IMG/VR virus record: IMGVR_UViG_3300008954_000003
Coordinates: 1 to 64,000 of that record
Reading direction: 5' to 3' (one strand)
Length of the DNA: 64,000 nucleotides
Origin: a virus
Shown: positions 10,865-63,345 of the stretch, piece after piece
Position numbering within the stretch: position 1 is the stretch's first letter
Layout of the letters: the number at the start of each line of letters is the position of its first letter
The notes under the pieces: model-generated
What the model saw: only the letters and a program-made list of their open reading frames with translations
Told to the model about the DNA's origin: nothing
Database searches by the model: none
Made by a program: the position numbers and the translations under genes

Positions 10865-10865
10865 T

Positions 10866-11624: not shown

Positions 11625-11629
11625 AAGGG

Positions 11630-11658: not shown

Positions 11659-11672
11659 GATTCATCTCTGAT

Positions 11673-11706: not shown

Positions 11707-11716
11707 AACTTCTTAT

Positions 11717-15116: not shown

Positions 15117-15289
15117 GTGTTATTTCGTTTGATGAGTTAGAGGTTTGTCGTGATTGTGGTGTGGTAAAGTGGAAAAAGGTCATTTGCGCTTCTTGTGAAA
15201 AGAAGGCTCGTCAGAACAAGTTAGCTGAAGAAATCTCAGCTCTTAGAAAGAGGGTGGATTTTTTAGTGGAAAACTTGAAGAAAGGTTAA
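15113..15289 (+). CDS. 58-aa zinc-ribbon + coiled-coil protein, not in the ORF track
   Basis: MSVISFDELEVCRDCGVVKWKKVICASCEKKARQNKLAEEISALRKRVDFLVENLKKG*; ATGA overlap; fills the gap between neighbours. Confidence 0.75.
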   Translation: MSVISFDELEVCRDCGVVKWKKVICASCEKKARQNKLAEEISALRKRVDFLVENLKKG

Positions 15290-21225: not shown

Positions 21226-21226
21226 G

Positions 21227-22297: not shown

Positions 22298-22303
22298 GGT
22301 GTT

Positions 22304-29857: not shown

Positions 29858-29908
29858 CCGAAAAAGAACAAGCGGAAGATGTTATTACGAAAGTAAAGTG
29901 GGGCTATA

Positions 29909-39869: not shown

Positions 39870-39871
39870 AG

Positions 39872-44438: not shown

Positions 44439-45325
44439 CAAGAGTGAAACCGCGATCACCAAAAGATTTAGATCCCTCGCAAAAAGAAAGTATTGATGAG
44501 GTAAAGAGGAGATTGGACAATTCCCCAGAGCAAGGTGGTTCTGGTTTGGGAGGCAGTCTTTCAATCTATAATAACCCAAAAACCCTCAAACTTGAAAATC
44601 AATATATAAAGAAGCATCCCGATTGCCCATCAGGGATTGCGCTTATAAACGATGCGAGATACCGAGATAAAAGTGGGTTGCCGGCACCATCTGTTCTTAT
44701 GTACAACATAAGCGAAAAAACAGATACGAACGAAACAATTGACTTGAGAAATAGAGAGACCCTTGCGTTCGCTTCAAGATTTGAGGTGTCATCAATGACG
44801 GACATCAAGACACCCTCGATACCTGGAGATTTCAAAGCAAGGTCTGCGATCATAGCAAGAGCAGATGTTATTGATTTGAAGGGTTCTGAGTTTGTTCAGA
44901 TTCAAACAGGTGGTCGTCGTTATAATTCAAGAGGTGCTCGGATTGATGTGCTTGGTGGTGTGCATATTGTTGCGGGCGAGGCAGATAGATTTCCGGTTCA
45001 ACCACTTGTTAAAGGATATAACCTGAAAGACTTCCTTGATGATGTCATGAAAAACATTGGAGATCTCGCGTCAACAATGCAAAAGATGCACACGGAGATA
45101 ATGATATTAAAGGCGTCCCTTGCTCTTCATTTTCACATAGGTGCAACAGGTCCGGTCGCACCGTCGCTAGATTTGTGCGCTGGTATAATAAGCATGGTGG
45201 CTGGAGATTTTACAACCACTGCAAACCTTATGGGTATGATTGCGAACATTGAACTAACAAAGGTTAATTATTTGATGCCGTTTGCAAAGAAATGGATTTT
45301 GAGCAGATACAACAAGGCGAATTAA
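44435..45325 (+). CDS. Putative spike C-terminal (gp5/gpV-like) protein
   Basis: Beta-rich middle, helical end, LHFHIGATGP (HxH metal-tip motif); position in the baseplate module. Confidence 0.5.
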   Translation: MTRVKPRSPKDLDPSQKESIDEVKRRLDNSPEQGGSGLGGSLSIYNNPKTLKLENQYIKKHPDCPSGIALINDARYRDKSGLPAPSVLMYNISEKTDTNETIDLRNRETLAFASRFEVSSMTDIKTPSIPGDFKARSAIIARADVIDLKGSEFVQIQTGGRRYNSRGARIDVLGGVHIVAGEADRFPVQPLVKGYNLKDFLDDVMKNIGDLASTMQKMHTEIMILKASLALHFHIGATGPVAPSLDLCAGIISMVAGDFTTTANLMGMIANIELTKVNYLMPFAKKWILSRYNKAN

Positions 45326-45328
45326 GAA

Positions 45329-49111: not shown

Positions 49112-50779
49112 ATGCTTGGTTACGATTCTATTAATTCTGTTTTACAAGGAGCCTCTGCAAGAGAGAGGATAAGAGCCTTTCTTACTGACTACTTGTTGTT
49201 TACATATCCGGCGTATGCAGAGATACCAGGGCTTACTTCCGACAAACTTAAACCATTGGTTTCTTTTTTCATGGAGAGATTTGAGAACGACGTTGGCGAT
49301 TTATTAGTGGCCTATAGACTTGCAGCTTTGTTCGAAGACAAAGATTTTTTGTTCGAAGGGAAAGGGGAGACGGAAATTGTAGAAGCATCTAAAAAAGCCC
49401 TCTTTGATGTGTTCATGAGTGTTCTTTATGAGATGTTAGAAGAGCTTGGAAAGAGGTTCTCAACAAAGAAAAAGAAGCTTGTTTCTGATGGGTTCATTGG
49501 GCAACTTTTCAATACAGATAGCACTTGGGGATATATCCCAACAAACATGTATAATTTGTGGAACATCGGGAGCTATATTAGTGAGGTCGGAAAGGTAGTC
49601 CAAGGGAACGATAAGATATTTCCAGAGTTTTTAACCGGAGAAGGCGACGATCTTTTATTTGGAGAGCATTACGCATCAAATGATTTGATAAGCTTTGGAG
49701 ATATTAGGAAGTTTGATTCTTCAATAAAGCCAGAAAATAAAACAGAGAGATTTGATTTAGAAACAACAGCCGATTGGAATTTTTTGAAGACAAGGCCAAA
49801 GTTCTTTTTGGAGATCTTTTTCAGAAATTCAAAACTGGTTGGATTTGGAAGAGAGCAATTTAAATATATGTCTTTATCCGAAGCTGGAAAGGCAATGGTG
49901 AGGCTTAAAGAACTGAAGTCAGTTACGAGTAAACAGCATCTTCAAAACTTCCCGCCTCTTGTGCCAGATGAGATTGGTGTGAGATTGGTCATGAACTTAT
50001 CTTACGTTGAAGCTTTGAGGGCGGGCTCCATATACTCACTATTAAACAGCACAAATGAAATAGAAAGCCCAAAGCCAACATTCGGGTGGAACATGCACCC
50101 GGAACTTGGGAAAGTTTCGACAATTTTGGATAGCGGTATATTTCAGGGATCCACTTTAAGTGGATGGCGCTCTGTTGACACCCTAAGACTCCATTTCAGA
50201 GAGGGCACAAAAGGTATTTTATCGCAAATATTGTCGGGTAAGTTGCCGGAAAAGAAAATTGATACGGAAAAAATGATGATGGAAAAAGCAGGAATAAGAG
50301 TTGGCTTTGTCAACGAAGTTCCCCAAGGAACCATTGGAAAGAAATTCGCTGACGGACAAAAGTTTCCCGGTTTTAAGTTAGCAAAGAAAGATAGAATCTT
50401 CACATTAACGTTCCCCGTTGTCATTTCAGAGGCGGTAACTCCAATAAACCCTTTTGAGTTTGAACTTATTTCTCAAGCGCCAGCTTTGCAACTTGCTGGA
50501 CAGGGAACAGGGGCGACGTTCTTTTCTATTCTTTCAAAGCCGGTTCTTGCTCTTGAAAAAGATCAGAAGACAAAAGATTTTATCAATAAAACCCTTCCGT
50601 ATGACTTACTTAATGCAATCTATCCTATTTATTATAGTTCTTTGGTGGATCGCAAAGTTGGGAAAGATAACAAATCGATGAGAGACATTATCAGAGAAGA
50701 GGATAGGTTTGAATTGAACAAGTATAAGAAATCAATCGATGCGATGTTGAGGAATTTGTCAAAGTTTGACGAGGTATAA
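49112..50779 (+). CDS. Hypothetical protein in the baseplate module
   Basis: 555-aa ORF abutting both neighbours. Confidence 0.6.
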   Translation: MLGYDSINSVLQGASARERIRAFLTDYLLFTYPAYAEIPGLTSDKLKPLVSFFMERFENDVGDLLVAYRLAALFEDKDFLFEGKGETEIVEASKKALFDVFMSVLYEMLEELGKRFSTKKKKLVSDGFIGQLFNTDSTWGYIPTNMYNLWNIGSYISEVGKVVQGNDKIFPEFLTGEGDDLLFGEHYASNDLISFGDIRKFDSSIKPENKTERFDLETTADWNFLKTRPKFFLEIFFRNSKLVGFGREQFKYMSLSEAGKAMVRLKELKSVTSKQHLQNFPPLVPDEIGVRLVMNLSYVEALRAGSIYSLLNSTNEIESPKPTFGWNMHPELGKVSTILDSGIFQGSTLSGWRSVDTLRLHFREGTKGILSQILSGKLPEKKIDTEKMMMEKAGIRVGFVNEVPQGTIGKKFADGQKFPGFKLAKKDRIFTLTFPVVISEAVTPINPFEFELISQAPALQLAGQGTGATFFSILSKPVLALEKDQKTKDFINKTLPYDLLNAIYPIYYSSLVDRKVGKDNKSMRDIIREEDRFELNKYKKSIDAMLRNLSKFDEV

Positions 50780-50781
50780 TT

Positions 50782-51174
50782 ATGGCTAGTGGAATTTCTG
50801 TAAAATTGCCCTTGGTGTATAGCAAGATCGATGGGCCATTTGCTCTGACGAAGACCTTTCAAGAGACGATCAAGCAGAATTTCAAGAATATGGTCTTAAC
50901 CGTCAAAGGGGAGAGGATAATGGACCCCGATTTTGGTGTGGGCCTTCACCAACTTCTTTTTGAGAACATAGATTCCGCCTTTATTGAGGTGATTGAAGAG
51001 CGAATCATAACTCAAACTGAAATTTATATGCCTTTTGTTAAAATTGAAGACGTAAACATTCAAACACCAGAGGAAGAACCAAACAAACTTTATGTGGGAA
51101 TTAACTATTATATCATTCCACTCAACGCTGATGATACATTAACCCTCAATATAAGTGATAAGGGAATAGAATAA
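50782..51174 (+). CDS. Baseplate wedge/sheath-initiator protein (gp25-like)
   Basis: IKQNFKNMVLTVKGERIMDPDFGVGL..LLFE..YMPFV. Confidence 0.92.
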   Translation: MASGISVKLPLVYSKIDGPFALTKTFQETIKQNFKNMVLTVKGERIMDPDFGVGLHQLLFENIDSAFIEVIEERIITQTEIYMPFVKIEDVNIQTPEEEPNKLYVGINYYIIPLNADDTLTLNISDKGIE

Positions 51175-52964
51175 TGGCAAAAACAAGACCACCGATTTCA
51201 TATACGAGTAGAGATTTCGAATCAATTCGAAATGACCTCATAAATTATGCAAAGATTTATTACCCTGATACATATAAGGATTTTAACGAGGCTTCGTTTG
51301 GTTCTTTGATGATCGATCTCGTCTCTTATGTTGGAGATATTCTTTCTTTTTATGTTGATTATCAAGCCAATGAAAGTTTTCTTGAAACATCGATTGAGAC
51401 AAAAAACGTTTTAAAACTTGCTCGTCAAATGGGGTACAAAGTACCCGGCTCACCATCATCAACAGGTGTGGCGGCCTTTTTTGTTACAGTGCCCGCTACA
51501 TCAAACGGCGGTTCCCCCAACCCTGACTTAATTCCAATTCTTAAAGCCGGAACCCTCGTCAGCTCAGATAGCGGGGCACAATTTATTTTGAACGAAGATG
51601 TCGATTTTGGGCGCTCTGACACCTTAATTAAAGTCGCAAATGTTGATTCAGACGGGACGGTTATTTCGTATGCGATGAAAGCCTATGGAGAAATTGTATC
51701 TGGCGAGGTTAGAGAAACAACATTTGAGGTCGGCAGTGAACAGAAATTTTTGAAGCTAACCCTGCCAGATGACAACGTTACAGAAATTTTGTCTGTTGTT
51801 GATACAGAGGGTCGTGAGTATTATGAGGTGGATTACCTTTCACAAGATACAGTATTCAAAGGGGTTAGAAACCTTCAATCAGATTTTGAAACAACCCCTT
51901 ATATCTTGAAAGAGCTTCAAACACCGAGAAGGTTTGTCGTGATTCATGATTTGGATGAAGAAACGGCAATACAGTTTGGGTCTGGAACGGAGCAAGAGTT
52001 GATTGACAAAGTGTTCCCCGATCCAACGTCAGCAGTCTTAAAGATGCATGGTAAGGATTATTTCATTGGAACTTCGTTTGATCCAAACAAGATAAGTAAA
52101 ACAGAAAAGATGGGCATAGCCCCCGCCAATACAATTTTAACTGTTCGATATCGCGTCAACACAACTGATAATGTTAATGCCCCTGTGGGTTCAATCGACT
52201 CTGTTGTCTCAACCAATGTCGAATTTAGAGAGAGTGTGACAACAAGAGCTTCGGCGCTTGCATCGATTTCAAATTTTGAAGTTGATAACGAAAATCCTAT
52301 TGTTGGTTCTGTTTCATTGCCGTCTGTTGACGAAATCAAAATGAGAGCGATTGACTCCTATGCTTCGCAAAACAGGGCAGTTACGAGACAGGACTACATC
52401 AGCCTTTGTTATAGAATGCCAGCAAGGTTTGGTGCGGTGAAGAGGGTTAATATCGTTCAAGACAAAGATTCCTTTAAAAGAAATTTGAATCTCTATGTCA
52501 TCTCTGAAGATGTCGATGGCAATCTTATTAGGGCGACAACATCTCTGAAGAAGAATTTGAAAACGTGGCTTAATAGATTTAAGATGATCAACGATACTGT
52601 TGATATTTTGGATGCAACGATAGCAAACATTTCAATAACCTTTGAGGTGGTAAGTGAATTTGATGCAGATAAAACAACGGCTTTGAATGAGTGCCTTCAA
52701 GAGTTGAAAGAGCTTTACAAAACGAAATTTAGGATCGGAGAACCTCTTTACCTTGGAGATATATACAAAGCCTTGAATGACGTTGATGACGTTGTTGACA
52801 CGATAAAAGTTGTCATTAATAGAAAGACGGGAACTAATTACAGTAGCGCACAATTTGATGTCTCTGACAACTTGAAGAAGAATGGGCGTGTGCTTATTGT
52901 CCCAGAGGATATGATATTAGAAATCAGAGATTTGGATAACGATATAACAGGAATCATTAAATAA
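51174..52964 (+). CDS. Baseplate wedge protein (T4 gp6/baseplate J-like)
   Basis: SRDFESIRNDLI, DFNEASFG, NESFLETS, LARQMGY, QNRAVTRQDY. Confidence 0.9.
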   Translation: MAKTRPPISYTSRDFESIRNDLINYAKIYYPDTYKDFNEASFGSLMIDLVSYVGDILSFYVDYQANESFLETSIETKNVLKLARQMGYKVPGSPSSTGVAAFFVTVPATSNGGSPNPDLIPILKAGTLVSSDSGAQFILNEDVDFGRSDTLIKVANVDSDGTVISYAMKAYGEIVSGEVRETTFEVGSEQKFLKLTLPDDNVTEILSVVDTEGREYYEVDYLSQDTVFKGVRNLQSDFETTPYILKELQTPRRFVVIHDLDEETAIQFGSGTEQELIDKVFPDPTSAVLKMHGKDYFIGTSFDPNKISKTEKMGIAPANTILTVRYRVNTTDNVNAPVGSIDSVVSTNVEFRESVTTRASALASISNFEVDNENPIVGSVSLPSVDEIKMRAIDSYASQNRAVTRQDYISLCYRMPARFGAVKRVNIVQDKDSFKRNLNLYVISEDVDGNLIRATTSLKKNLKTWLNRFKMINDTVDILDATIANISITFEVVSEFDADKTTALNECLQELKELYKTKFRIGEPLYLGDIYKALNDVDDVVDTIKVVINRKTGTNYSSAQFDVSDNLKKNGRVLIVPEDMILEIRDLDNDITGIIK

Positions 52965-54436
52965 TGGGTATCAAGAGATTCTACGCCACAAAAGATACAA
53001 CGATAACAAACGCCTATAAATCAGATTTGTCTACGAGGGCGACGGGTTCAAACATGGGCGCTTCTGATATACTAGAAGTATTCAGTGTTTATGCTCAAGC
53101 TTCAACGTCTTCATCAGAATTGGCAAGAGTTCTGATCGACTTTCCTGTTATGACAGAGATCTCCTCTTCAAGGGCGGCTGAGGATATTCCTTTAAGTGGT
53201 AGTGATAATCTTAGGTTCTATTTGAAGATGTTCAACGCAGAGCACAGCAACAGTCTTCCAAGAAAGTTTACATTGAGTATCGCAGCAGTTTCACGTTCGT
53301 GGACAGAAGGTGAAGGTCTTGATATGGATGAATATAAGGACCTTGATGTTTGCAATTGGACATCTGCGAGTCTTGGATCGGGTTCTGGCTGGCGAGATGC
53401 GGGAGGGGATTTCCTTTCATCGTCGGCGTATACAACATCGAGTCATTATTTTGAAGTTGGGAATGAAGATCTTGAGGCTGATGTAACTTCAATTGTTGAA
53501 AGCTGGATTGCTGGTACGATGGCGAACACGGGTGGTTTTGGGGTGTTTTTGTCTTCAAGCCATGAAAGTGCTGCACAATCATACCATACAAAGAAGTTCT
53601 TTGGTCGAAATAGCGAATACTATATGCGCCGCCCAGTTCTTGAGGCTCGATGGAATTCAGCAAAACAAGATGATTTTAAGAATTTCTATTTAAGCAGCTC
53701 TCTTGTTCCCGGAGAAGATAACCTTAACACCCTTTATCTCTACAATTTTGTAAGGGGGCAAAAGAAGAACATTCCCGGCTTGGACAGGACAAACAAAATC
53801 CTCATAAGTGTTTATGTTTCAGATACTGGCAGCGTGGATCCAAGCCCCAATAAAATAACCTTACCCATCGGGGGAGGGGTCGTTAGCAACAACGATGTGA
53901 ATGCTACAGGTGGATGGGTTGAAACAGGAGTGTATTCGGCCTCATTTGCGTATACAGGCTCTGCAAAGACAATCTTTCCTGTGTGGCATACGGGAAGCAC
54001 AGAGTATCATACCGGCTCTTCGATTTCCGTAAAGACCTTTGAAGCCGGTGAAGAGTACAACACAAAAAGATATGCGACAAAGATTGTTAATTTAAAGGCG
54101 AATTATTCTAAAGATGAAAGGGCAAGGTTTCGCTTGTTCATTCGTGAGAAAGATTGGTGCCCAACTATTTATACGGAGGCAAACGCAAGCGCCTCTAATA
54201 GTGTGATTGAAAAGGTATATTATAAACTGTCTCGTGCGGCTGATGATTTTACCATTTTCAATTATGGAACGGGGAGCACCCAACACACATTATTATCATA
54301 TGATAAGAATGGAAGTTATTTCGATTTGGACATGTCAATGCTAGAACCAGGATTCCAATACAAGCTTAAATTCCTCTATGATATATATGGTGACTTGGTT
54401 GAACCAAAGGAAGAATTCAAATTTAGGGTTGAATAA
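52964..54436 (+). CDS. Virion structural protein, Ser-rich, DNRLRE-like beta domain
   Basis: KDTTI, RVLIDF, SWTEG, DVTSIVESW, RPVLEARW; follows gp6. Confidence 0.65.
   Translation: MGIKRFYATKDTTITNAYKSDLSTRATGSNMGASDILEVFSVYAQASTSSSELARVLIDFPVMTEISSSRAAEDIPLSGSDNLRFYLKMFNAEHSNSLPRKFTLSIAAVSRSWTEGEGLDMDEYKDLDVCNWTSASLGSGSGWRDAGGDFLSSSAYTTSSHYFEVGNEDLEADVTSIVESWIAGTMANTGGFGVFLSSSHESAAQSYHTKKFFGRNSEYYMRRPVLEARWNSAKQDDFKNFYLSSSLVPGEDNLNTLYLYNFVRGQKKNIPGLDRTNKILISVYVSDTGSVDPSPNKITLPIGGGVVSNNDVNATGGWVETGVYSASFAYTGSAKTIFPVWHTGSTEYHTGSSISVKTFEAGEEYNTKRYATKIVNLKANYSKDERARFRLFIREKDWCPTIYTEANASASNSVIEKVYYKLSRAADDFTIFNYGTGSTQHTLLSYDKNGSYFDLDMSMLEPGFQYKLKFLYDIYGDLVEPKEEFKFRVE
53432..53462 (+). repeat. 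31-bp perfect direct repeat, copy 1
   Basis: acaacatcgagtcattattttgaagttggga, identical at 55117-55147. Confidence 0.95.
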
Positions 54437-57400
54437 TGAGCGCCAAAAAGCTTTTTGAGAAACAAAAAGTCCAACAGCAGAACTATAAAGGTTCTATAAG
54501 AAAAACATTAGGTGAGTTTTCTTCTGATGTTGAGTCTGCTGATTACATAACACAATACAAAAAGAGGACGAAAGGGTATATCCCGAATGTTGACTATACA
54601 ACGGCAAGCAATTTTGCCCGTTACGGTTCAGCAGAGAGGTATTATGAGGATGGTGTTCAACGAATTTATAAACAATATCCATATGATGGCTCAAAGGCAG
54701 AGAAGCTTGAATTTTATAACAACATAACACCTTTTGAGAAACACCTTGTTGACCAAGATTACCCGAGAAGCACAGGTTACGCTATATTTGGTGCTAATCC
54801 GACATATACGAATGATCAGCAGGATGGTTTTGGTTCATCAAGTTCACCAGAATATATAACATTTTATGGTGCAACCGAGGGAAACATCCTTAAGGAGACA
54901 AAGGGTCGCGATAACAATCTGAGAATTGATTTTGCAAGCGGTTCGACTGTCGAGTTTTGGTTGAAGCAAAAGGCTTGGCCCAATTCGTCAACCGAAACAG
55001 CAAAACAATGCATATTTTATCTTATGGATAAAGAGTTGTATCGACAACTTTATATCTATCAAGAGAGTGATGGCACGAATGATCTCATTTCATACACACT
55101 AGCAACGGGGCTTGGAACAACATCGAGTCATTATTTTGAAGTTGGGACACTCCAATTAAATACAAGTCTAACAAGTTCTGCTGATGATACATGGAGGCAC
55201 TATGCAATTGTGCAATCCTCATCGTCACTTGGTTTCAAGGTTCGTCTCTACATTGATGGCGAGTATAAAGATGAAAAGACAACAACATCTTTTGACGACT
55301 TGCCTCCAAGTATCACAGGGTCTTTGAAAGGAACCATCGGTGCGCTTGGCGGAACTGCAATAACAGCATCGGCAGAAGGCTCTGGCAAACTTACAGGTTC
55401 GATTGATGAGTTTAGGTTTTGGAGAAAAGAAAGGACAGGCCGTGAAATCGGAAGAAACTATTTCACACATGTCGGTGGTGGAACAAATACAGACGATGCG
55501 AACACAGACCTTGGCATTTATTTCAAATTCAACGAGGGGTTCACCGGAGTAAACAGCATAGACTCAGCCGTTTTAGATTATTCTGGAAGGCTTTCGAATG
55601 GTTCGTGGCAAGGCTATGTGTCTGGTTCTTCAAGAAGCACAGGTTCTGCTGTAACAGATTCGGGAATTTCAACAGAAGAGCAGGATCTCGTTGTTTATAG
55701 TAAACACCCGAAAGTCGTTGCATACGAGGCAGAAAAGGTTGCTTTAGGAAGACAACATGATGCGACAAACAACTCAAGCTTAGTGAATTCAATGCCGTTG
55801 TGGATTAGAGATGAGGATTCACAAACAGGCTTGCAGTTGACAAAATTTTTGCAGGTGCTTGCGAGTTACTTCGACACACTCCACCTTCAGGCGCAGAACA
55901 TAAACAGAGTTAAAGATATTGAGTACACCAACAATGATGTCAAGGAGTTTTCACATAATAACCGTTTGTTGACAAGTCTTGGTTTTGATGTACCAGAGCT
56001 TTTTGTAGATTCAGATGTTTTAGAGGCACTGCTTGACCAGAACGAAGAAGAGGTCTATTCAGATAGCGTACACAACCTTAAGAATAAGATTTATAAGAAC
56101 ATTTACAACAATTTATCTCACATTTATAAATCAAAGGGAACGGACAAGGCGATAAGGAATCTTATTCGGTGTTATGGTGTCGACGATGAGCTTTTCAATT
56201 TAAATATTTATGCGGACAATGTTGAATATAGGTTTGAGAATGATTTTGTCAACACATCAGGGAAGAAAGATGCGATAGACTTTACAAGATGGTTTGACAA
56301 AGAGAACGTTGGAGCAGTTGTTTATCAATTCAAAGAGTCTGAAAACGATAACAGTGCCGCTTTTGTATCTGGGGCGACAAATAATTTAACTCCGTTCACA
56401 GCAGAGGTCAACGCCTTTTTCCCAAGAGAGTCAAGAAAACAGGGTGAGCTGTTTGAGCCACCAAACACCTTTACAACTAAATCGTTGTTTGGTTGCAGAG
56501 ACGCAAATGAAGATGACCCACAAGACACCGGCTTTGATGGAAGTGGAAATACACAGGTAAGTGTTTATGCGGTTCGTCGTGATAACTTGACAAAATTCAT
56601 ATTAACATCGTCTGTTGGGGTGAACCTTGAGACAGACAATTTTTATGATGTCTATGATGATTCTGTTTGGAATTTATCTTTTAGAGTTAAACCTCTTGAG
56701 TATCCGTTTACAGATGGGATCGTAACAGCCTCATATTATGAGATGAAGTTCAATGGGTATAGATACGAACTTGGGAATTTACAACAGCAATTTTCAGCAT
56801 CGGCGAGTTTTTCAGTGTCCAGGGGAGAATCCTTTGCAACTACAGCAAAGAGGGTTTATATTGGAGCGGAACGTGCAGATGTGACAGGCGCGTTATCATT
56901 CCCCTCAGAATATAGAAACCTTTCAACCAGAGTTTGGCAGGACTATTTGTCAGAAGATGAGTTGAAGGCTCATGCCCGTGATATTTTCAATTTTGGACGA
57001 ACAAATCCTGGGCAAAGTGCTTTTGTTTGGGAGATTGGTCTTACTGCAAGTTCAATTCCAAAGAAAGACACACTCGCTCTTCACTGGGATTTTTCAAAGG
57101 TAACGGCATCGAACACGCAGGGAGAGATTTTTGTTGCAGATGTTTCGTCTGGTTCACTTGCGTTGGCATCGAGATACATTGATTATTCAGATCTTGTAGA
57201 TATCCAACATTATGGGCAAGGAAAGTTTTTCACATCAAGCGGAAATGTCAAAAAGGTGGAGTTTGTTCCAACTTCAAAACAACAAATGCCAGAGAACTTA
57301 AACTCATCTGACATGATTCAAATCCTTGAAAGAGATGACGTTTTCATAAGAGAAGCTCGCCCGATCAAATATTACTTTGCGTTTGAATCAAGTATGTACG

Positions 57401-57921
57401 ATATCATTTCAAGAAACATGCTTGACTTTTTTGCAACGGTTGTTGATTTTAACAACCTTGTTGGTGAGCCAGTCAACAGTTTTGAAACAGAATACAAGGG
57501 CCTTAAGTATTTAAGACAATTATTTTTTGATAAGATTGAAAACGATCCTGATTTAGACAAGTATGTTTCATTGTACAAATGGTTGGATGCGGCACTTGAT
57601 GTGGTTGTGTTGAATCTTGTCCCCGCATCGGCTGATTCGTCGGAAGAGGTCAACACTGTAATTGAAAACCACATTCTTGAGAGAAATAAATATAGGCAAA
57701 AACTATTATATACAGACAGAACAAAAGAAACATCGGCAGGTTTCACAAAAACAAACAAGGTTGGGAAAGCTTCGAACAGACCACAAGAAAAAGAAGGGGC
57801 AATTGTTGACAAACCAAACAAGAGAGTGGCTTCGTTGGATCGCAACAGGGTTTTGTATTACAATAACAAGTTTTATATCGACATAGCATTTGGTCGAGGA
57901 GGCGGCGGAAGTGATAGGTAA
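54436..57921 (+). CDS. Baseplate/tail protein with LamG (concanavalin A-like) domains
   Basis: TVEFWLK, WRHYAIV, LYIDG, GSIDEFRFW, YFKFNEG; IYKSKGT..AIRNLIRCYG resembles tail-I/wedge motifs. Confidence 0.8.
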   Translation: MSAKKLFEKQKVQQQNYKGSIRKTLGEFSSDVESADYITQYKKRTKGYIPNVDYTTASNFARYGSAERYYEDGVQRIYKQYPYDGSKAEKLEFYNNITPFEKHLVDQDYPRSTGYAIFGANPTYTNDQQDGFGSSSSPEYITFYGATEGNILKETKGRDNNLRIDFASGSTVEFWLKQKAWPNSSTETAKQCIFYLMDKELYRQLYIYQESDGTNDLISYTLATGLGTTSSHYFEVGTLQLNTSLTSSADDTWRHYAIVQSSSSLGFKVRLYIDGEYKDEKTTTSFDDLPPSITGSLKGTIGALGGTAITASAEGSGKLTGSIDEFRFWRKERTGREIGRNYFTHVGGGTNTDDANTDLGIYFKFNEGFTGVNSIDSAVLDYSGRLSNGSWQGYVSGSSRSTGSAVTDSGISTEEQDLVVYSKHPKVVAYEAEKVALGRQHDATNNSSLVNSMPLWIRDEDSQTGLQLTKFLQVLASYFDTLHLQAQNINRVKDIEYTNNDVKEFSHNNRLLTSLGFDVPELFVDSDVLEALLDQNEEEVYSDSVHNLKNKIYKNIYNNLSHIYKSKGTDKAIRNLIRCYGVDDELFNLNIYADNVEYRFENDFVNTSGKKDAIDFTRWFDKENVGAVVYQFKESENDNSAAFVSGATNNLTPFTAEVNAFFPRESRKQGELFEPPNTFTTKSLFGCRDANEDDPQDTGFDGSGNTQVSVYAVRRDNLTKFILTSSVGVNLETDNFYDVYDDSVWNLSFRVKPLEYPFTDGIVTASYYEMKFNGYRYELGNLQQQFSASASFSVSRGESFATTAKRVYIGAERADVTGALSFPSEYRNLSTRVWQDYLSEDELKAHARDIFNFGRTNPGQSAFVWEIGLTASSIPKKDTLALHWDFSKVTASNTQGEIFVADVSSGSLALASRYIDYSDLVDIQHYGQGKFFTSSGNVKKVEFVPTSKQQMPENLNSSDMIQILERDDVFIREARPIKYYFAFESSMYDIISRNMLDFFATVVDFNNLVGEPVNSFETEYKGLKYLRQLFFDKIENDPDLDKYVSLYKWLDAALDVVVLNLVPASADSSEEVNTVIENHILERNKYRQKLLYTDRTKETSAGFTKTNKVGKASNRPQEKEGAIVDKPNKRVASLDRNRVLYYNNKFYIDIAFGRGGGGSDR
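55117..55147 (+). repeat. 31-bp perfect direct repeat, copy 2
   Basis: Identical to 53432-53462; both copies encode TTSSHYFEVG. Confidence 0.95.
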
Positions 57922-60900
57922 AGGAAGACCTTCAAGTGAACATCACCCACAGACAAACGTAGATGACGTTCCGTCTGTGATTGGTGTTGTCCATGAGACA
58001 CCTGAGTACGTTGAGAAGAAATACAATGTAACAGAGGAAGGGAAGCCTTTTGTCTCTGAAGAAGAAAAGAAATATGAAAATCGCCGATATGACGCATCAA
58101 AAGAATCTACCGGAACAAATGTTTGGTGGAACCTGAGAGCAGAAAGAAACGCCAATAGTTTTCCGACAAACAGCTCTGGTGAAGTAAAAAGCAGAATTAA
58201 TATCCATGCGATTTACAACAGAGACTATTCTTTTCTAAACAGAAAACCTTACACACTTTCTCTTAAGAAAAGTCGTTGTTTCGTCGGAGGCCTCAACAAA
58301 AACAAAGGGCACACACCTGACCATTTCAGAGGGTATTTCTCGGTTGACACGGGAGACTATTACAATGTAACTTTGGACTCGGATCAGATTTACACCTCAA
58401 AAGATTATCCTTCAAAAGATGTGGAAAAAACTGTCGTTAGCGTTGTTCCCAACGATGTTCTGAACAATGCAGAGGTTCATGGGTATAACATCTTACCTTT
58501 TGTTTTATATAGCAGTTCCATAAATAAAGGATATCAGACGGCACTCACCCTGTCTCACCCTGTCCAGATGCTAGGGCACCACGACGACGTTTATTATGGT
58601 GATTATTCAAAACCACTTCAAGGCCCGTTCACAAGAACGCATGTTGGTGGGTTCCTTCATAGAAGGCAAAAGCTTTCCGATGGTTCAGACACAGCAGAGA
58701 CAAGACCGGAAATGTTCAGAGTCGACTCTTCAGGCGGAATTGTTTATGTGCGAGAAGGAAGGACGACAGGGGTTGACGAAAGAGATGTTGATCGTCCATT
58801 CTCAAAGTATTCAAGTGAGGAGTTCGTCCGCAGAGCTGTGAATATAAAGAATGTTGAATACCATACAGCATCTGATTTTATTGGAAACTTTGATAAAAAC
58901 TATCAAGTGGTTCAAGCCACCAACAATAATTTGGCATTTATTGACAATAATGGGTTCAATATCCAAGAGGGAGAATCGACGACTGTATCTGGCGTTTTGG
59001 ATTTCGATATGCCAAGAAGACATTTGGCAGAACACAGCAGCTCATTCAACAAGACCGTCATCGTGACAAGGTTCGACGCCCCAGGATCGCCGGAAACTCA
59101 CGGTGGATTCCTTGATGTCGCTTCTGGCCAATATACGGTTTATAGTGCTTTGCCCTATAGAAATTTAACCGTAAGACAACCACTTGTAACTCTTTTATCT
59201 TTGCCGAATCGGTTTGGTGGCCTAAGATCTGGTTCTGCCGCAATTGGCAGAGGCCCAGAGATAACGGCATCTTTCCACAAAATCAACAGCAATCCTGTAC
59301 AGGAACTGCGCCCACTAACCAACACAACCTACTTGTCAGGCTCAAAATATGACAATTATTTTGTCCAATACGCCATTCCGAAGAGCGATATTCGTTATGC
59401 TTGGATCACCGCGTCAGCTTTGATTGAGAAATCACACCCTCTTTTGTATGGTAGAGCACAGTTTGATGGGATGACAACAAGTTCTGATGGTGAAACACCA
59501 GCATTGACCGTTGTTAGCGAAAGTGAATTAAATGCTGATGGATTTTCAACTCCATTTGTCGGAATGACAACCATCATGCAATTGGATCTTTCAAGTTCAA
59601 ATACTGTTCAGTCAAGAAGTGTTGATATTCTTGGAACACTTGAGGAATATGAGAAGTTGAACGCTTACCTTTTGACTCTCAATGGCCCCTATCAGCATCC
59701 AATGTTTAAGCAGATTCGTGGATATGAACACCCAACGACAAGAAACCTAAGAAGAACAAACAGATACCAACACATTGAAGAGTTCCAAAATAAGGCTGGT
59801 TTGACATCTGGAGCCCTTTGCGATGTGACTCATCCACCTGTGAGTAAGAAGTTCCTTCCTATAAATCACACAATCGAGGTTGATAAGGAAAACGTTACGA
59901 TAAAATACACCCACACAAACAACTATGATTTTTTTGGAGACTATTACGACCCTTCAGCCAATAGGATGATAAACATTTCTAGGAAAAAGAACGCGCGAAC
60001 GTCCAACAAAGATGATTCTGTGCTGAACAACATTGCATTATCATACACCGGCTCTGTGAAGTTTGTGACTCTACAGCACAATGAAACAATTTGGCCACGA
60101 GAGTCAAAGGCTTTTATAAAAAATACGAGAGAGCGTGAGCAATTCTTTTTCCCATGGAGAACGACCGAAGGCAACAGGCTTACAAATATTACGAACTCCT
60201 TTGGGATATCACCATTTGAATCGGATGGACCTCTTGGTTTTAGTGTTTGGCCAATGGACGCAACATCTGATGGTAGAAACGGCGAGCTTGTTCAGGGCGA
60301 TAATGACACTTTCTATTCACAACAGGACATAACAGGAACTTTCGAACCAACACCAGATTCCTTGTATATTTCTGCAAGATATGGTCGTTTTTATGGAGAG
60401 GAGTTGCCAAAGAATACCGTTCATAGTGACGCGAACACTGGACCGTTTTTTGATACATATAAGAGTTTTTCGGAAGAGCTGCGTTTGAAAGGGCAAGGCT
60501 ATTCAATTTTACCAGAATACAATATTTCCAATGTCATTGAAGCGTATGCCAAATCTGGTAGTGATGAATTCATTGATGATCTTCACCAACTTGAACTCAC
60601 AGGCACACTTGCGCTTTCTTCAACATCGTCGTTTTTGGAAACATATGCACATAGTGATTATTTGATTGGGGCACAAGATGTAATAAACACTCACAATGCT
60701 AAATTGGCACACGTTGAGATTGAAATCGATGGCCTATTAAAACTGTTACCGTATTATGGGTTTTACCCACAACAGAGAACACTGCAATTGGCGAAGCAGT
60801 TTCAGAACACTTATAGCGCAAAGTCGACTTTGGCTGGTAACGATGCAAACTTTAGAACAATTTTAACACCGTTTTATTCACCAGGAATCTGTTACAATTC

Positions 60901-62563
60901 AATCAAATCAGGTCTTGCTGTTGATTATCCAATATTGGATTCGACGACCTTTGCTGACCACGAGGCTCTTAAAGAAATATCCGCTGACAACCCATACAGA
61001 AAGGATAGTCAAGCGATGCCATTTGAGGCAATAATAGATCCGGTTAAAGAATTCTTTAAGATATCTTCACTTCTTGAGATAGCGGACACAGATTCTGAAA
61101 TTCGGGTTGATTCAACAGGGACGTTTGGCCTTGACAATGATAGCGTATACACTCGTATGGCAGATAACTGGTATCCTTCTGTGGTCGATACTTTTATTGA
61201 GGGTGGGAAGCCAATTAGCTTTGAGTCAAGGCCAGAGAGCGAATGGAAATTTGAAAGTGTAACAGGATCTTTTGGTATCGCAAAATACATTGGGCATGTA
61301 AAAATAAGAAAGACAGAAAACATGACAGTCCATGATGCTGCAAACTATTTTGGGCATCAATCTGATTTTACATCATCGAACGTTCATCACGTTCCACCAT
61401 ATTATGGAATCTTTGGTCCGTATGATACAGCAAATGGGCAGGCTTCAAACACAGCTTATGTTAGGATTCTTTTTGATCCCGCAGGAGTGTTTCAGCAAGA
61501 TCCTGATAGATTTATACAGGGCAAATTTACACTTGATGACATAATCAACCACTCATCTCTGCTTTTCACGAATGATTTGATGGAAACAAATAACGTTTTC
61601 AATTTCATGCCGATAAGTGCGAGTGTCAATTTGTTTGGGCGCTCTGTTGAAAGCGATAAGTGGAATATCCATACTAAGTGGGAATCCCCTGCAATCAATA
61701 TGATAGATTCGAATCCTCTTACTACAGGAAGCGAGCCGACCATGGCTGTAAAGGGTTTGTGGCATCAGTATGGGAAAGTTCCCACAAACAGGACGGAAGG
61801 TTTGTTTTTACAAACGGTAGATAATGAGGCTGGTGTCGGACCCAACCTTATTAGATCAACAGGATCTCTGTTTAAAGCTGTTGGTATAACAGAAGAAGAC
61901 AGAAGAATTGGAGAAGTCGCGAAAACAAAAGAGATTGGGGAAACGGTTGTTGTTATTCCGTATTACTTAGATGACAATAACGAAGAGTCGTTTCTTAAGT
62001 TGGATTTGGTAGAGTTCGAAGAGGCTTACTTAAGTGAGGGTTCTGGCAGCATTGTGAGCAGCTCCCTTGTCGACATGATCAGGCGAACAAGGCAGATCGT
62101 TTTGCCACCAAAATTTGACTTTGTGAAGAGGCGGGACGAATCCAGTGTCCAAATTGATAACCCTGTTGAATATAATCCGGTTTTGTCACCATATGCTATG
62201 TACCTCATAGACTTCAAACACAATCTTTCTCAAGATGATTTGGGTAAGTGGTGGCAGGGGGTCTTGCCGCAGATCGGCTTGGTTTCTGAAGAACAGACCG
62301 TTAAACTTAAACACCCCATAAAGAAGGGTGAAATAATTTCCCCAAAAATGTTGGAAAGTTTTGGAGGGGTTTTGCCGAAGAATTTAAGGTTTAAAGTTTT
62401 CAAGTCCAAAAAATTGGCGGTCAAGAAATACAGTAAGTTTATGAACGATCTTGTCGGGGATAGTGATAAAACAGAGTATAAGTACAATTATAACTGGCCA
62501 TATGATTTCTTCTCGTTGGTGGAAATGGCTCGGATAAAGCTTGGGCTGGGGTTTAAGGAATAA
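57911..62563 (+). CDS. Large virion structural protein
   Basis: About 1550-aa ORF; GTG at 57911 lies 8 nt after GAGGAGG; ends YNWPYDFFSLVEMA. Confidence 0.7.
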   Translation: MIGKGRPSSEHHPQTNVDDVPSVIGVVHETPEYVEKKYNVTEEGKPFVSEEEKKYENRRYDASKESTGTNVWWNLRAERNANSFPTNSSGEVKSRINIHAIYNRDYSFLNRKPYTLSLKKSRCFVGGLNKNKGHTPDHFRGYFSVDTGDYYNVTLDSDQIYTSKDYPSKDVEKTVVSVVPNDVLNNAEVHGYNILPFVLYSSSINKGYQTALTLSHPVQMLGHHDDVYYGDYSKPLQGPFTRTHVGGFLHRRQKLSDGSDTAETRPEMFRVDSSGGIVYVREGRTTGVDERDVDRPFSKYSSEEFVRRAVNIKNVEYHTASDFIGNFDKNYQVVQATNNNLAFIDNNGFNIQEGESTTVSGVLDFDMPRRHLAEHSSSFNKTVIVTRFDAPGSPETHGGFLDVASGQYTVYSALPYRNLTVRQPLVTLLSLPNRFGGLRSGSAAIGRGPEITASFHKINSNPVQELRPLTNTTYLSGSKYDNYFVQYAIPKSDIRYAWITASALIEKSHPLLYGRAQFDGMTTSSDGETPALTVVSESELNADGFSTPFVGMTTIMQLDLSSSNTVQSRSVDILGTLEEYEKLNAYLLTLNGPYQHPMFKQIRGYEHPTTRNLRRTNRYQHIEEFQNKAGLTSGALCDVTHPPVSKKFLPINHTIEVDKENVTIKYTHTNNYDFFGDYYDPSANRMINISRKKNARTSNKDDSVLNNIALSYTGSVKFVTLQHNETIWPRESKAFIKNTREREQFFFPWRTTEGNRLTNITNSFGISPFESDGPLGFSVWPMDATSDGRNGELVQGDNDTFYSQQDITGTFEPTPDSLYISARYGRFYGEELPKNTVHSDANTGPFFDTYKSFSEELRLKGQGYSILPEYNISNVIEAYAKSGSDEFIDDLHQLELTGTLALSSTSSFLETYAHSDYLIGAQDVINTHNAKLAHVEIEIDGLLKLLPYYGFYPQQRTLQLAKQFQNTYSAKSTLAGNDANFRTILTPFYSPGICYNSIKSGLAVDYPILDSTTFADHEALKEISADNPYRKDSQAMPFEAIIDPVKEFFKISSLLEIADTDSEIRVDSTGTFGLDNDSVYTRMADNWYPSVVDTFIEGGKPISFESRPESEWKFESVTGSFGIAKYIGHVKIRKTENMTVHDAANYFGHQSDFTSSNVHHVPPYYGIFGPYDTANGQASNTAYVRILFDPAGVFQQDPDRFIQGKFTLDDIINHSSLLFTNDLMETNNVFNFMPISASVNLFGRSVESDKWNIHTKWESPAINMIDSNPLTTGSEPTMAVKGLWHQYGKVPTNRTEGLFLQTVDNEAGVGPNLIRSTGSLFKAVGITEEDRRIGEVAKTKEIGETVVVIPYYLDDNNEESFLKLDLVEFEEAYLSEGSGSIVSSSLVDMIRRTRQIVLPPKFDFVKRRDESSVQIDNPVEYNPVLSPYAMYLIDFKHNLSQDDLGKWWQGVLPQIGLVSEEQTVKLKHPIKKGEIISPKMLESFGGVLPKNLRFKVFKSKKLAVKKYSKFMNDLVGDSDKTEYKYNYNWPYDFFSLVEMARIKLGLGFKE

Positions 62564-63345
62564 TGGAATTCTTCAACAAAAAAGAAGAGGTGCTCGATTT
62601 TGTTTTGACAAAGAAAGGGCGAGAACTGTATGCCAAGGGAAAATTGGCTCCTTACGGATATCGCTTTTTTGATGATGAAGTTGTTTACGACAACGCTTCA
62701 GGCGAGCTTCAGAATGAAATAGCTAAAAGAATCAAGAAGGACCTTAAAGTTAAGGCGATCACATCAGTTGTTGGTTCAAACATTGCGAAGACAGAGGTTC
62801 CGACAGTGAAGCTTTACAACGAGCTTGGACATGTCACAACGCTAACCCAAAGCGCGCCTTCGTGGAAAGTGATCATGCAAGAAGGGTTTGTCGATACAGG
62901 AAGTTATATTTCGTTCCCAACAGGGGTCAAGGGAAATACCTCTGATGAGATGAAAGCTCACCTTGAAAGAATCCCGCAATTGAATCTTGAAGTTAAATAC
63001 GACATATATTCTGAGAATTACAAGAACAACGCTGACAAGAATATGAAAAGGGTTACATTGGAAAAGGATTCAAACGATTTGCTCTTTACATTTGAGGAGA
63101 ACAACGCTTTTGATTTGGGAGAAGAGCAGGAGTTGTATTACGAGGTCTACAAGATCAATTATGATTCGAACAACACCGCTTCGTTGGTGCCACTGGAAAT
63201 GTCAGATAAAGAGTTTTCAAGCGAATTTGTCGGACACTACCTTAATATTTTGGAAGATGACGTTGCAACACAAAAACACCTTTTCAAAATCAAGAATATT
63301 TATGGTACAGAAACTCTGAAAGAAGATGATTTCTGTGAGGAATAA
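62563..63345 (+). CDS. Baseplate/tail-associated protein
   Basis: LTKKGRELYAKGK...FFDDEVVYD N-terminus resembles the LT..GR..LA motif of tail/baseplate-attachment proteins. Confidence 0.6.
   Translation: MEFFNKKEEVLDFVLTKKGRELYAKGKLAPYGYRFFDDEVVYDNASGELQNEIAKRIKKDLKVKAITSVVGSNIAKTEVPTVKLYNELGHVTTLTQSAPSWKVIMQEGFVDTGSYISFPTGVKGNTSDEMKAHLERIPQLNLEVKYDIYSENYKNNADKNMKRVTLEKDSNDLLFTFEENNAFDLGEEQELYYEVYKINYDSNNTASLVPLEMSDKEFSSEFVGHYLNILEDDVATQKHLFKIKNIYGTETLKEDDFCEE

What the first reader, a model, noticed from the sequence alone, without database searches (positions are those of the whole stretch)
52964..63345. Tail proteins studded with a [S/T]-[G/A/S]-S tripeptide: candidate sequon for phage-encoded virion glycosylation
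Seen: the 490-aa protein has about 16 dispersed TGS/SGS/SSS/TSS/SAS sites (ATGSN, ISSSR, LSGSD, TSASLGSGSG, YSASFAYTGSA, HTGSTEYHTGSS and others). The LamG protein and the 1550-aa protein carry many more (ITGSL, ITASA, VTASY, FSASASF, LSGSK, YTGSV, VTGSF). By eye I find none in the adjacent 596-aa gp6. The sites are scattered through globular domains, often after a hydrophobic or aromatic residue, so this is not low-complexity linker. Established: phage-encoded glycosyltransferases can O-glycosylate virion proteins (some mycobacteriophages), and giant viruses glycosylate their fibrils. Inference: the tripeptide is an acceptor sequon on outer tail proteins, served by the 25-kb glycan island upstream.
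Basis: partly seen in the sequence, partly recalled or inferred. Interest (0 to 1): 0.88.

Follow-up and report, generated by a model that had tools for sequence, protein, structure and literature searches.

The report
Candidate sugar-attachment tag on phage virions
The outward-facing tail, neck and sheath proteins of this uncultured marine T4-like phage carry the tripeptide Ser/Thr-Gly/Ala/Ser-Ser four times more often than chance, and across phages this excess travels with one conserved pair of phage sugar-transferase genes, so it is probably the signal for a phage-made sugar coat, though no modification has been measured.

Summary
[ST][GAS]S occurs 18, 21 and 19 times in the three named proteins, against 3-4.5 expected (z 7-9). 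The excess survives 12-residue local shuffles and is strictly directional (T[GA]S 21, S[GA]T 0). Codons at the sites are mixed. TGS, TAS, SGS, SAS and SSS also top an unbiased tripeptide scan.

Genome-wide, ten virion proteins hold 107 sites against 25 expected. They include the outer sheath domains, a neck-like protein and LamG/Ig-like proteins. gp6, gp25, portal, tube and terminase have none. The same orthologues are enriched in two complete relatives about 46% identical to this phage.

The excess tracks the first two genes of the glycan island, a pair of GT4-type glycosyltransferases, and not the whole 25-kb island. The nonulosonic-acid part is variable. Eight lineages with the pair show the excess, including the cultured Flavobacterium phage immuto and Microcystis phage Mel-JY01. 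Nine sheaths from phages without the pair do not.

No glycan has been measured, surface exposure was only weakly tested, and most sites are conserved in position. A lineage-inherited structural motif therefore remains a rival. This scan had already noted the same motif on other phage DNA (e1-5644671 and others).

The parts
52964..54436 (+). 490-aa peripheral baseplate protein with a CBM-like jelly-roll at residues 1-231 and an FN3/Ig-like domain at 365-490; carries 18 [ST][GAS]S sites
   Evidence: Model pLDDT 79. Chondroitin-sulfate CBM 8wab_B, Z 16.8, rmsd 2.8 over 170 residues. Family of more than 3400 marine homologues. 79 homologues carry 1092 sites against 257 expected.
54436..57921 (+). 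1161-aa LamG-domain virion protein with 21 sites; colinear with residues 1-1248 of a single giant ORF in relatives
   Evidence: Laminin_G_3, E 2.7e-10. Colinearity.
57890..62563 (+). Virion protein of about 1551-1557 aa with 19 sites; colinear with residues 1243-2888 of the relatives' giant ORF; probably starts at a GTG coupled to the upstream stop codon
62563..63345 (+). 260-aa protein with only 2 sites here, but its family is enriched 4.8x (43 against 9.0 in 19 homologues)
51174..52964 (+). gp6-like inner baseplate wedge protein: 0 sites here; forward motif at 0.42x in 80 homologues, while its five permutations lie at 0.83-1.24x
   Evidence: phrog_219.. Empirical percentile 3%.
50782..51174 (+). 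gp25-like wedge protein: 0 sites; in 78 homologues T[GA]S is 0 against 3.5 and S[GA]S is 0 against 4.7
   Evidence: PF04965..
42474..50779 (+). Four large unannotated tail-module proteins (654, 296, 1260 and 555 aa) with 0 sites against 4.8 expected
15293..16549 (+). GT1a, a GT4-type (GT-B, retaining) glycosyltransferase that keeps the E-x7-E signature; first gene of the conserved pair
   Evidence: PF00534, 47.9 bits.. Homologues in Mel-JY01 and immuto, none in T4 or S-SM2.
16546..17802 (+). GT1b, a divergent GT4-type glycosyltransferase that also keeps E-x7-E; its family is essentially phage-only; second gene of the conserved pair
   Evidence: PF00534, 32 bits..
17799..19424 (+). 541-aa protein with a GT2 domain at residues 300-435; conserved only in the closer lineage (about 25% identity in G004 and G005) and fused to GT1b in some relatives
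19424..40756 (+). Variable part of the glycan island: further GT1/GT2 genes, carbamoyl-, methyl-, formyl- and acetyltransferases, two NeuB, two CMP-sugar cytidylyltransferases, a PseB-like dehydratase, an aminotransferase, an epimerase and an NDP-sugar dehydrogenase. No multi-pass membrane protein.
   Evidence: NeuB is absent from the complete relatives G004 and G005.

Best explanation
The tripeptide [ST]-[GAS]-S is usually preceded by an aromatic or aliphatic residue and has an almost invariant Ser at its third position. It is most likely the acceptor or recognition signal for a soluble, cytoplasmic O-glycosylation system encoded by the phage. The conserved pair of GT4-type transferases (GT1a at 15293-16549, GT1b at 16546-17802) would attach and extend a sugar on Ser/Thr of newly made outer virion proteins. 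These are the peripheral baseplate and fibre proteins, the outer sheath domains, a neck-like protein and small head- or tail-associated proteins. Lineage-specific genes downstream would elaborate the glycan; in this phage they are the rest of the 25-kb island, including a nonulosonic-acid pathway. Shown here: the statistical signature, the set of proteins that carry it, its conservation, and its co-occurrence with the GT pair. Inferred: that the GT pair reads the tripeptide, that a sugar is attached, which hydroxyl is the acceptor, and what the coat does (shielding or host-surface interaction).
For: (1) The excess is 4-5x, directional and at the protein level. It emerges from an unbiased tripeptide scan and exceeds all comparable random motifs scored on the same family. 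(2) Genome-wide split: 10 target proteins hold 107 sites against 24.8 expected, and the other 99 ORFs hold 39 against 44. Portal, both tube paralogues, terminase, gp6 and gp25 have none. (3) The targets are outward-facing. All 9 sheath sites lie outside the conserved core (residues 708-1002), at 143-335 and 614-626. The 490-aa protein is a CBM-like domain plus an FN3-like domain. Other targets carry LamG or weak Ig matches. (4) The same orthologues are enriched in two complete relatives at about 46% identity, and the rest of each genome is at expectation (85 vs 88.7; 95 vs 97.5). 119 homologues of the 490-aa protein average 13.8 sites against 3.2 expected. At conserved sites, substitutions stay within T/S, G/A/S and S. 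(5) Co-occurrence with the GT pair. Of 50,697 GenBank phage records, only Mel-JY01 and the immuto phages have GT1b. These were the two controls that showed the excess, and they had been chosen on sheath similarity before their GT content was known. Three further lineages with the pair at about 30% identity each have a strongly enriched sheath, capsid protein or 970-aa protein. Sheaths: six with the pair total 57 against 20.4 expected; nine without total 23 against 16.7; Mann-Whitney p 0.0002. LR756508 has a sheath as close to ours as Mel-JY01's but has neither the pair nor the excess. 26 of 40 related contigs carry GT1b, and the 14 without it end 30 kb or less upstream of the 490-aa gene, short of or at the edge of where the pair lies. 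(6) Both GTs keep the GT4 E-x7-E signature. The island has no multi-pass membrane protein, which fits soluble transfer in the cytoplasm. (7) The forward motif alone is depleted in the gp6 and gp25 families.
Against: There is no chemical evidence of any modification. Co-occurrence is confounded by phylogeny: all lineages with the pair share related capsid or sheath genes, and no correction was applied. Most of the excess sits at roughly conserved positions. 72% of sites in the 490-aa family lie in columns shared by at least half the sequences. Lineage-private sites (76) are close to the chance expectation of 68. A structural role therefore fits as well. Exposure is only weakly supported: 15 of 18 sites lie in coil against 62% background (p about 0.05), and sites show no preference for strand ends. 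The gp6 depletion reaches only the 3rd percentile of random motifs. General avoidance in non-target structural proteins is seen in this genome (6 vs 18.9) but not in G004 or G005 (0.88x and 0.84x). The nearest characterised relatives of GT1a act on small molecules, lipids or polysaccharides, and all score far below family cut-offs. Expression timing of the island is unknown, and no late-promoter consensus lies directly upstream.
Confidence: 0.55

Rival explanations
1. The tripeptide is a structural or folding feature (a loop or turn signature) of the particular outer-domain families this phage clade uses. It is inherited together with the GT pair simply because both belong to the same clade. 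The GTs act on something else, such as the host envelope, a polysaccharide or DNA.
For: Most sites are conserved in position. Private sites are near chance level. Every lineage with the pair shares related capsid or sheath genes. GT1a resembles non-protein GT4 enzymes. General avoidance is not replicated in G004 or G005.
Against: The target proteins are not homologous to each other, yet they share the same directional tripeptide. Beta-sandwich, LamG and fibre proteins of T4, S-SM2 and S-SCSM1 show no excess. The forward motif alone is depleted in gp6 and gp25. The 970-aa protein of G006 and the 373-aa protein of immuto have no homologue in this genome but are enriched 6-8x. No known structural motif requires S/T, a small residue, then a strict Ser but not Thr.
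Confidence: 0.22
2. The tripeptide is a recognition tag for a different reader: another modification of Ser (phosphorylation, acylation, ADP-ribosylation) or an assembly or chaperone factor. The link to the GT pair would then be indirect.
For: The statistics only show that something selects for and against the tripeptide.
Against: No kinase or other protein-modifying enzyme was found to co-vary with the motif, whereas the GT pair does across eight lineages. This was not searched exhaustively.
Confidence: 0.12
3. Chance or a compositional artefact of Ser/Gly-rich fibre proteins.
For: The target proteins are somewhat Ser-rich (9-12% Ser).
Against: z is 7-9 per protein and 11.7-14 pooled, even with 12-residue local shuffles. 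The mirror motifs are at or below expectation. The excess is replicated in more than 100 homologues and exceeds all comparable random motifs.
Confidence: 0.01

Closest known systems
Virion glycosylation of mycobacteriophages by phage-encoded glycosyltransferases (Freeman et al. 2023, Cell Host Microbe; cited as reference 80 of PMC12582341; the paper itself is not held)
   Same: Phage-encoded soluble glycosyltransferases are thought to modify the phage's own structural proteins in the cytoplasm, giving a glycan coat on the virion.
   Different: From my own knowledge, not checked here: in that system two GTs next to the structural genes modify Ser/Thr-rich C-terminal extensions of the capsid and tail-tube subunits of siphoviruses. 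Here the phage is a T4-like myovirus. The candidate sites are a defined tripeptide scattered through folded domains of about ten different proteins. The tail tube has none. The GT genes lie 35 kb from the targets, inside a large sugar island.
Cytoplasmic flagellin O-glycosylation with nonulosonic acids (Maf proteins; FlmG of Caulobacter, PMC7591256)
   Same: OTase-independent, soluble, sequential transfer onto many Ser/Thr of surface-exposed domains in the cytoplasm. A NeuB-type nonulosonic-acid pathway is encoded beside the transferases.
   Different: No Maf (PF01973) is present. The nonulosonic-acid module is dispensable for the motif, because relatives lack it.
Serine-rich-repeat adhesin glycosylation by GtfA/GtfB (own knowledge; weak PDB match of the 541-aa protein to GalT1 of that pathway, 5hea, E 3.9e-5; weak NCBIfam match of GT1a to SdgA)
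   Same: Two adjacent GT-B paralogues start O-glycosylation of Ser within S-[A/small]-S contexts in the cytoplasm, and further GTs then extend the glycan.
   Different: GtfB is a non-catalytic partner, whereas here both paralogues keep E-x7-E. SRR acceptors are long low-complexity repeats, whereas here the sites are single and dispersed in folded domains.
Autonomous capsid glycosylation of chloroviruses such as PBCV-1 (PMC4691112, PMC7019647)
   Same: The virus encodes its own soluble GTs and sugar-nucleotide enzymes and glycosylates its major structural protein at a non-canonical sequon. GT1a weakly matches PBCV-1 glycosyltransferase B736L (3oy2, E 4e-6).
   Different: That host is eukaryotic and the glycans are N-linked on one capsid protein. 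The sequence match is generic GT-B similarity.
General O-glycosylation of Bacteroidota, with the sequon D-[ST]-[AILVMT] (own knowledge)
   Same: A three-residue O-glycosylation sequon found on many proteins; relevant because one cultured relative infects Flavobacterium.
   Different: That system is periplasmic and lipid-linked and uses a different motif. Here there is no export machinery and no Asp requirement.

Membership tests
T4-like contractile-tailed phage (Straboviridae-like architecture) | gp25 and gp6 wedge proteins, gp23-type capsid protein, gp18-type sheath, gp19-type tube, portal and large terminase | tested here: met
   PF04965 and phrog_219. PF07068 Gp23 at E 8e-73, and phrog_23 sheath at E 7e-69. 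Tube, portal and terminase.
GT4 / Glycos_transf_1 retaining GT-B glycosyltransferases (GT1a and GT1b) | PF00534 match above the curated cut-off, and a C-terminal E-x7-E signature | tested here: met
   GT1a 47.9 bits and GT1b 32 bits against a cut-off of 26.4. E-x7-E is conserved in both across six lineages.
Phage-encoded virion O-glycosylation (mycobacteriophage type) | Phage-encoded soluble glycosyltransferases with no export machinery | tested here: met
   About ten GT genes. No multi-pass membrane protein in the window.
Phage-encoded virion O-glycosylation (mycobacteriophage type) | Glycans demonstrated on virion proteins (mass shift, glycostain, MS) | not testable with these tools
   Needs virions. 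Cultured relatives exist (immuto, Mel-JY01).
Phage-encoded virion O-glycosylation (mycobacteriophage type) | Acceptor sites in Ser/Thr-rich C-terminal extensions of capsid and tail-tube subunits (feature recalled from memory) | tested here: not met
   Sites are dispersed through folded domains of about ten proteins. Both tail-tube paralogues have 0 sites.
Flagellin-type nonulosonic-acid O-glycosylation (Maf / FlmG) | Nonulosonic-acid synthesis and CMP-activation genes | tested here: met
   Two NeuB, two CTP_transf_3, a PseB-like Polysacc_synt_2 protein, an aminotransferase and a GNAT.
Flagellin-type nonulosonic-acid O-glycosylation (Maf / FlmG) | Maf-type transferase (PF01973) | tested here: not met
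   No match in the whole 121-kb record at E <= 1. An FlmG-like TPR plus GT-B architecture was not tested.
GtfA/GtfB-type initiation of Ser O-glycosylation | Catalytic GT-B paired with a non-catalytic GT-B paralogue | tested here: not met
   Both paralogues keep E-x7-E in all six lineages.
OTase-dependent (PglL/PglB-type) en bloc protein glycosylation | Lipid-linked assembly with an initiating phosphoglycosyltransferase, a flippase and a multi-pass oligosaccharyltransferase | tested here: not met
   A hydropathy scan finds no protein with more than one TM-like segment in the window. The rest of the genome was not scanned this way.

The most novel reading that the evidence does not exclude
A large, globally distributed group of marine and freshwater T4-like phages uses a true O-glycosylation sequon, hydrophobic-[ST]-[GA/S]-S. 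A conserved phage-only GT4 pair reads it and coats about ten different outer virion proteins at more than 100 sites per protein set. Lineage-specific sugar islands, here a 25-kb one ending in a nonulosonic acid, diversify the coat. This would be the first defined sequon for cytoplasmic bacterial or phage O-glycosylation and the first sugar-coated T4-like virion.
Probability: 0.45. Interest if true: 0.88.

Novelty: new variant of a known kind. Interest (0 to 1): 0.76.

Why it matters
If the tripeptide is a sequon, it gives sequence-level predictability to cytoplasmic O-glycosylation, which is usually described as having no consensus (PMC7591256). It would also show that abundant ocean myoviruses wear a programmable glycan coat. 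The 490-aa protein alone has more than 3400 metagenomic homologues, including Tara samples. A coat of this kind could affect adsorption, decay, grazing, aggregation and recognition by host defences. A short portable tag plus two soluble enzymes would be attractive for glyco-engineering. The idea can be tested now, because two cultured phages carry both the GT pair and the motif excess: Flavobacterium phage vB_FspM_immuto and Microcystis phage Mel-JY01.

Tried and rejected
(1) DNA-word explanation: rejected, because codons at the sites are mixed.
(2) Local clustering of small residues: rejected by 30- and 12-residue window shuffles and by the mirror motifs.
(3) A shared repeat or domain among targets: rejected. 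The only similarities are a 26-residue match and one weak 22%-identity pair.
(4) My own impression that sites begin just after beta-strand ends: tested and retracted. 5 of 18 sites do, against a 31% background.
(5) 'Site number kept while positions move': inconclusive. Strict same-column sharing is low, but with a +/-6-column tolerance the private sites (76) are close to the chance expectation of 68.
(6) General avoidance of the motif in non-target structural proteins: seen in this genome (6 vs 18.9, p 6e-4) but not in G004 or G005. The gp6-family depletion is motif-specific but only at the 3rd percentile of random motifs.
(7) GtfA/GtfB-like inactive partner: not supported.
(8) Maf-type transferase: none found.
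(9) A late promoter directly upstream of the island: none. TATAAATA occurs 5 times in the window against 1.8 expected, and the nearest + strand copies are at 12366 and 40945.
(10) Close relatives in GenBank phages: none by DNA. The 490-aa protein has no tblastn hit there.
(11) A Foldseek PDB search of the 490-aa model gave only generic Ig/FN3 hits. The VIA-align wide search was the informative one.
(12) Literature searches for phage virion glycosylation with pseudaminic or nonulosonic acids, and for Mel-JY01, found nothing on this system.
(13) The atlas search gave only phage-only, unnamed or generic GT clusters.
(14) Complex prediction and the second structure job were not used.

Full report
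WHAT THE WINDOW IS. The window is the reverse complement of bases 57144-121143 of a single 121,143-bp viral contig, which CheckV rates 42% complete. Nearly all genes lie on the + strand. The phage is an uncultured T4-like myovirus. It has a gp25 wedge protein (50782-51174), gp6 (51174-52964), a gp23-type capsid protein, a gp18-type sheath of 1004 aa, two gp19-like tube paralogues, a portal and a large terminase. It has no close relative in GenBank phages. The best sheath matches are Microcystis phage Mel-JY01 and Flavobacterium phage immuto, at 38-40% identity over the core. In metagenomes the group is very large: the 490-aa protein has more than 3400 homologues, many from Tara and other marine samples.

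THE OBSERVATION. I translated every + strand ORF and counted [ST][GAS]S against 1000 shuffles of each protein. gp6 has none. The six tail-module proteins upstream (42474-52964, 3491 aa) have none against 6.2 expected. The pooled excess (58 against 11.7) survives shuffling within 30-residue and 12-residue windows (z 12.4 and 11.7). It is also strictly directional: T[GA]S 21 vs S[GA]T 0, TGS 13 vs SGT 0, TSS 9 vs SST 2, and a third-position Thr is not enriched. Ser codons at the sites come from both codon families in background proportions. A scan of all 8000 tripeptides puts TGS, TAS, SSS, SGS and SAS at the top in the target proteins, and SGS and TGS at the top in two relatives. None of these ranks among the top tripeptides in the non-targets.

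WHICH PROTEINS CARRY IT. Across the whole contig the pattern is bimodal. Ten proteins hold 107 sites against 24.8 expected. The remaining 99 ORFs hold 39 against 44. Five clearly enriched targets lie outside the window:
- a 357-aa protein (L003:12582-13655:-; 10 against 2.0; weak Ig match);
- a 675-aa LamG protein (L003:10540-12567:-; 12 against 2.8);
- a 140-aa protein encoded near the capsid gene (L002:11346-11768:-; 6 against 1.3);
- a 415-aa protein with a weak C-terminal match to the head-tail adaptor family, called neck-like here (L002:5359-6606:-; 6 against 1.4);
- the sheath (L002:959-3973:-; 9 against 3.0).
The capsid protein, counted as the tenth target, is only weakly enriched (4 against 2.4). 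All nine sheath sites lie at residues 143-335 and 614-626. They are therefore outside the C-terminal core (708-1002) that aligns to other phages' sheaths. By analogy with T4 gp18, the non-core domains form the outer tail surface; this is inference from established knowledge. The 490-aa protein models well (pLDDT 79). It has an N-terminal jelly-roll like polysaccharide-binding modules (8wab_B, Z 16.8, rmsd 2.8 over 170 residues) and a C-terminal FN3/Ig-like domain, which suits a peripheral baseplate protein. The targets are not homologous to each other. Flanking preferences are Tyr at -2 (3.1x) and Leu/Ile at -1 (about 2x).

CONSERVATION. 119 homologues of the 490-aa protein (50-57% identity) average 13.8 sites against 3.2 expected, with T[GA]S 608 vs S[GA]T 90. 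72% of sites fall in alignment columns shared by at least half the sequences. At those columns the substitutions stay within T/S, then G/A/S, then Ser (for example T76/S39, G87/A25/S3, S115). I fetched two complete relatives whole: G004 (186 kb) and G005 (190 kb), both about 46% identical in this protein. The same orthologues are enriched in them, and the rest of each genome matches expectation (85 vs 88.7; 95 vs 97.5). Across 80 related loci the 490-aa family has 1092 sites against 257 expected, and the 260-aa family has 43 against 9.0.

LINK TO GLYCOSYLTRANSFERASES. The island at 15293-40756 is real. It contains about ten GT1/GT2 genes, a carbamoyltransferase, methyltransferases, a formyltransferase and a GNAT. 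It also has two NeuB homologues, two CMP-sugar cytidylyltransferases, a PseB-like dehydratase, an aminotransferase, an epimerase and an NDP-sugar dehydrogenase. No protein in it has more than one TM-like segment. Only part of the island travels with the motif. NeuB is absent from both complete relatives. All long relatives do share two adjacent GT1 genes plus a GT2 protein of about 545 aa. In more distant lineages only the GT1a-GT1b pair remains. Both GTs keep the GT4 E-x7-E signature. GT1b's family is essentially phage-only and is sometimes fused to a GT2 domain.

CONTROLS. I chose control phages by sheath similarity, before looking at their GT content.
- T4 shows no excess: 58 against about 57 over both segments, T[GA]S 5 vs S[GA]T 15. 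Neither do cyanophage S-SM2 (45 vs 42), S-SCSM1 or the uncultured LR756508.
- Mel-JY01 shows it in the sheath (11 vs 3.1) and in the orthologue of our 415-aa target (5 vs 1.0).
- Immuto shows it in the sheath (10 vs 3.8) and in a 373-aa protein (17 vs 2.9).
Only afterwards did I find that Mel-JY01 and immuto carry adjacent GT1a/GT1b homologues, while T4, S-SM2, S-SCSM1 and LR756508 do not. I also found that these are the only GenBank phages, out of 50,697 records, with GT1b. Three further viral contigs carry the pair at about 30% identity and have no 490-aa homologue. Each has a strongly enriched large protein: the sheath in G007 (9 vs 2.5), the capsid protein in G009 (7 vs 1.6) and a 970-aa protein in G006 (15 vs 1.9, T[GA]S 6 vs 0). 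For sheaths alone, six lineages with the pair total 57 against 20.4, and nine without it total 23 against 16.7 (Mann-Whitney p 0.0002, not corrected for phylogeny). Among 40 related contigs, 26 carry GT1b 21-40 kb upstream of the 490-aa gene. The other 14 end 30 kb or less upstream of that gene, so none is a real counter-example. RM378 is ambiguous: it has only a weak 66-residue match to GT1b and no sheath excess.

TESTS THAT WEAKEN OR LIMIT THE CASE.
- My impression that sites follow strand ends was wrong (5 of 18 against a 31% background). Only a mild preference for coil remains: 15 of 18 against 62%, p about 0.05, calculated by hand.
- Site turnover is inconclusive. Few sites share the exact column between lineages, but with a 6-column tolerance the private sites (76) are close to the 68 expected by chance. 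The excess is therefore mostly conserved in position, which a structural role would also predict.
- Avoidance of the motif is mixed. In the gp6 family only the forward motif is depleted (0.42x, against 0.83-1.24x for its five permutations; T[GA]S 0.42 and TSS 0.22, against S[GA]T 1.28 and SST 2.5). gp25 shows the same pattern. Against random motifs on the same family, however, this is only the 3rd percentile. The broader depletion in non-target structural proteins (6 vs 18.9 here) is not seen in G004 or G005.
- All lineages with the pair are related, so the co-occurrence is not independent evidence in the strict sense.
- Nothing shows when the island is expressed.

INTERPRETATION. The most economical reading is a tag read by an enzyme. 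The GT4 pair is the only candidate reader found to co-vary with it. Soluble GTs, the lack of export machinery and outward-facing targets point to cytoplasmic O-glycosylation of virion proteins. This resembles what has been reported for mycobacteriophages (reference 80 of PMC12582341). Mechanistically it also resembles OTase-independent flagellin glycosylation (PMC7591256). It differs from both in having a sharp tripeptide on about ten unrelated proteins. I put this reading at 0.55, a lineage-inherited structural motif with the GTs acting elsewhere at 0.22, another kind of reader at 0.12, and chance at 0.01.

PRIOR NOTES OF THIS SCAN. Earlier notes describe the same tripeptide on other phage DNA. 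They include one followed-up case that also linked it to a conserved GT pair (e1-5644671), and first-reader notes on relatives (e1-5698567, e1-5703563, e1-5726555). These are unchecked AI notes.

Noticed in passing
window 53432-53462 and 55117-55147: A perfect 31-bp direct repeat shared in frame by the 490-aa and 1161-aa genes. It encodes T-T-S-S-H-Y-F-E-V-G in both and includes one TSS site. The flanks are unrelated.
   Followed up: partly
window 57890-57921: The 1161-aa and about 1551-aa genes are colinear with one giant ORF (2896-3234 aa) in relatives. Here they are split, with a GGAGG-spaced GTG start overlapping the upstream TAA stop. This looks like a genuine coupled two-gene split, not a sequencing error, but a frameshift was not excluded.
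   Followed up: partly
window 15114-15289: The apparent 177-bp gap before the glycan island holds a small ORF of about 58 aa with two CxxC pairs (zinc-ribbon-like). It is not listed among ORFs of 80 aa or more.
   Followed up: no
G012, G020, G022, G024, G028 (contigs behind L005, L022, L028, L030, L046): In several relatives GT1b lies in an open frame of 665-686 aa. This matches atlas clusters that combine PF00534 and PF00535, so it is a natural GT1b-GT2 fusion.
   Followed up: no
PP395634.1 (Mel-JY01) 83441-84845: The GT1a homologue of the cultured Microcystis phage is split into open frames of 198 and 313 aa, while GT1b is intact. This could be a frameshift, a sequencing error or a true split.
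   Followed up: no
G009:C1:81938-88993 (within L130): A 2351-aa, extremely Ser-rich protein in a lineage that has the GT pair carries only 17 [ST][GAS]S against about 107 expected from its composition. This is a strong depletion within low-complexity sequence.
   Followed up: no
L001:18774-19929:-: Two adjacent tail-tube paralogues (173 and 208 aa, both phrog_4542), neither with any motif site.
   Followed up: no
NC_004735.1 (RM378) 9165-11893 and 25085-25387: Rhodothermus phage RM378 has a GT gene followed by a 435-aa ORF whose first 66 residues weakly match GT1b. It also has a 100-aa ORF with 6 motif sites against 1.3 expected. Its sheath is not enriched.
   Followed up: no
window 12807-13454: A ClpP-family protease (E 1.8e-33) lies just downstream of a TATAAATA late-promoter-like site at 12366. 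All genes from here through the glycan island are co-directional and tightly packed.
   Followed up: no
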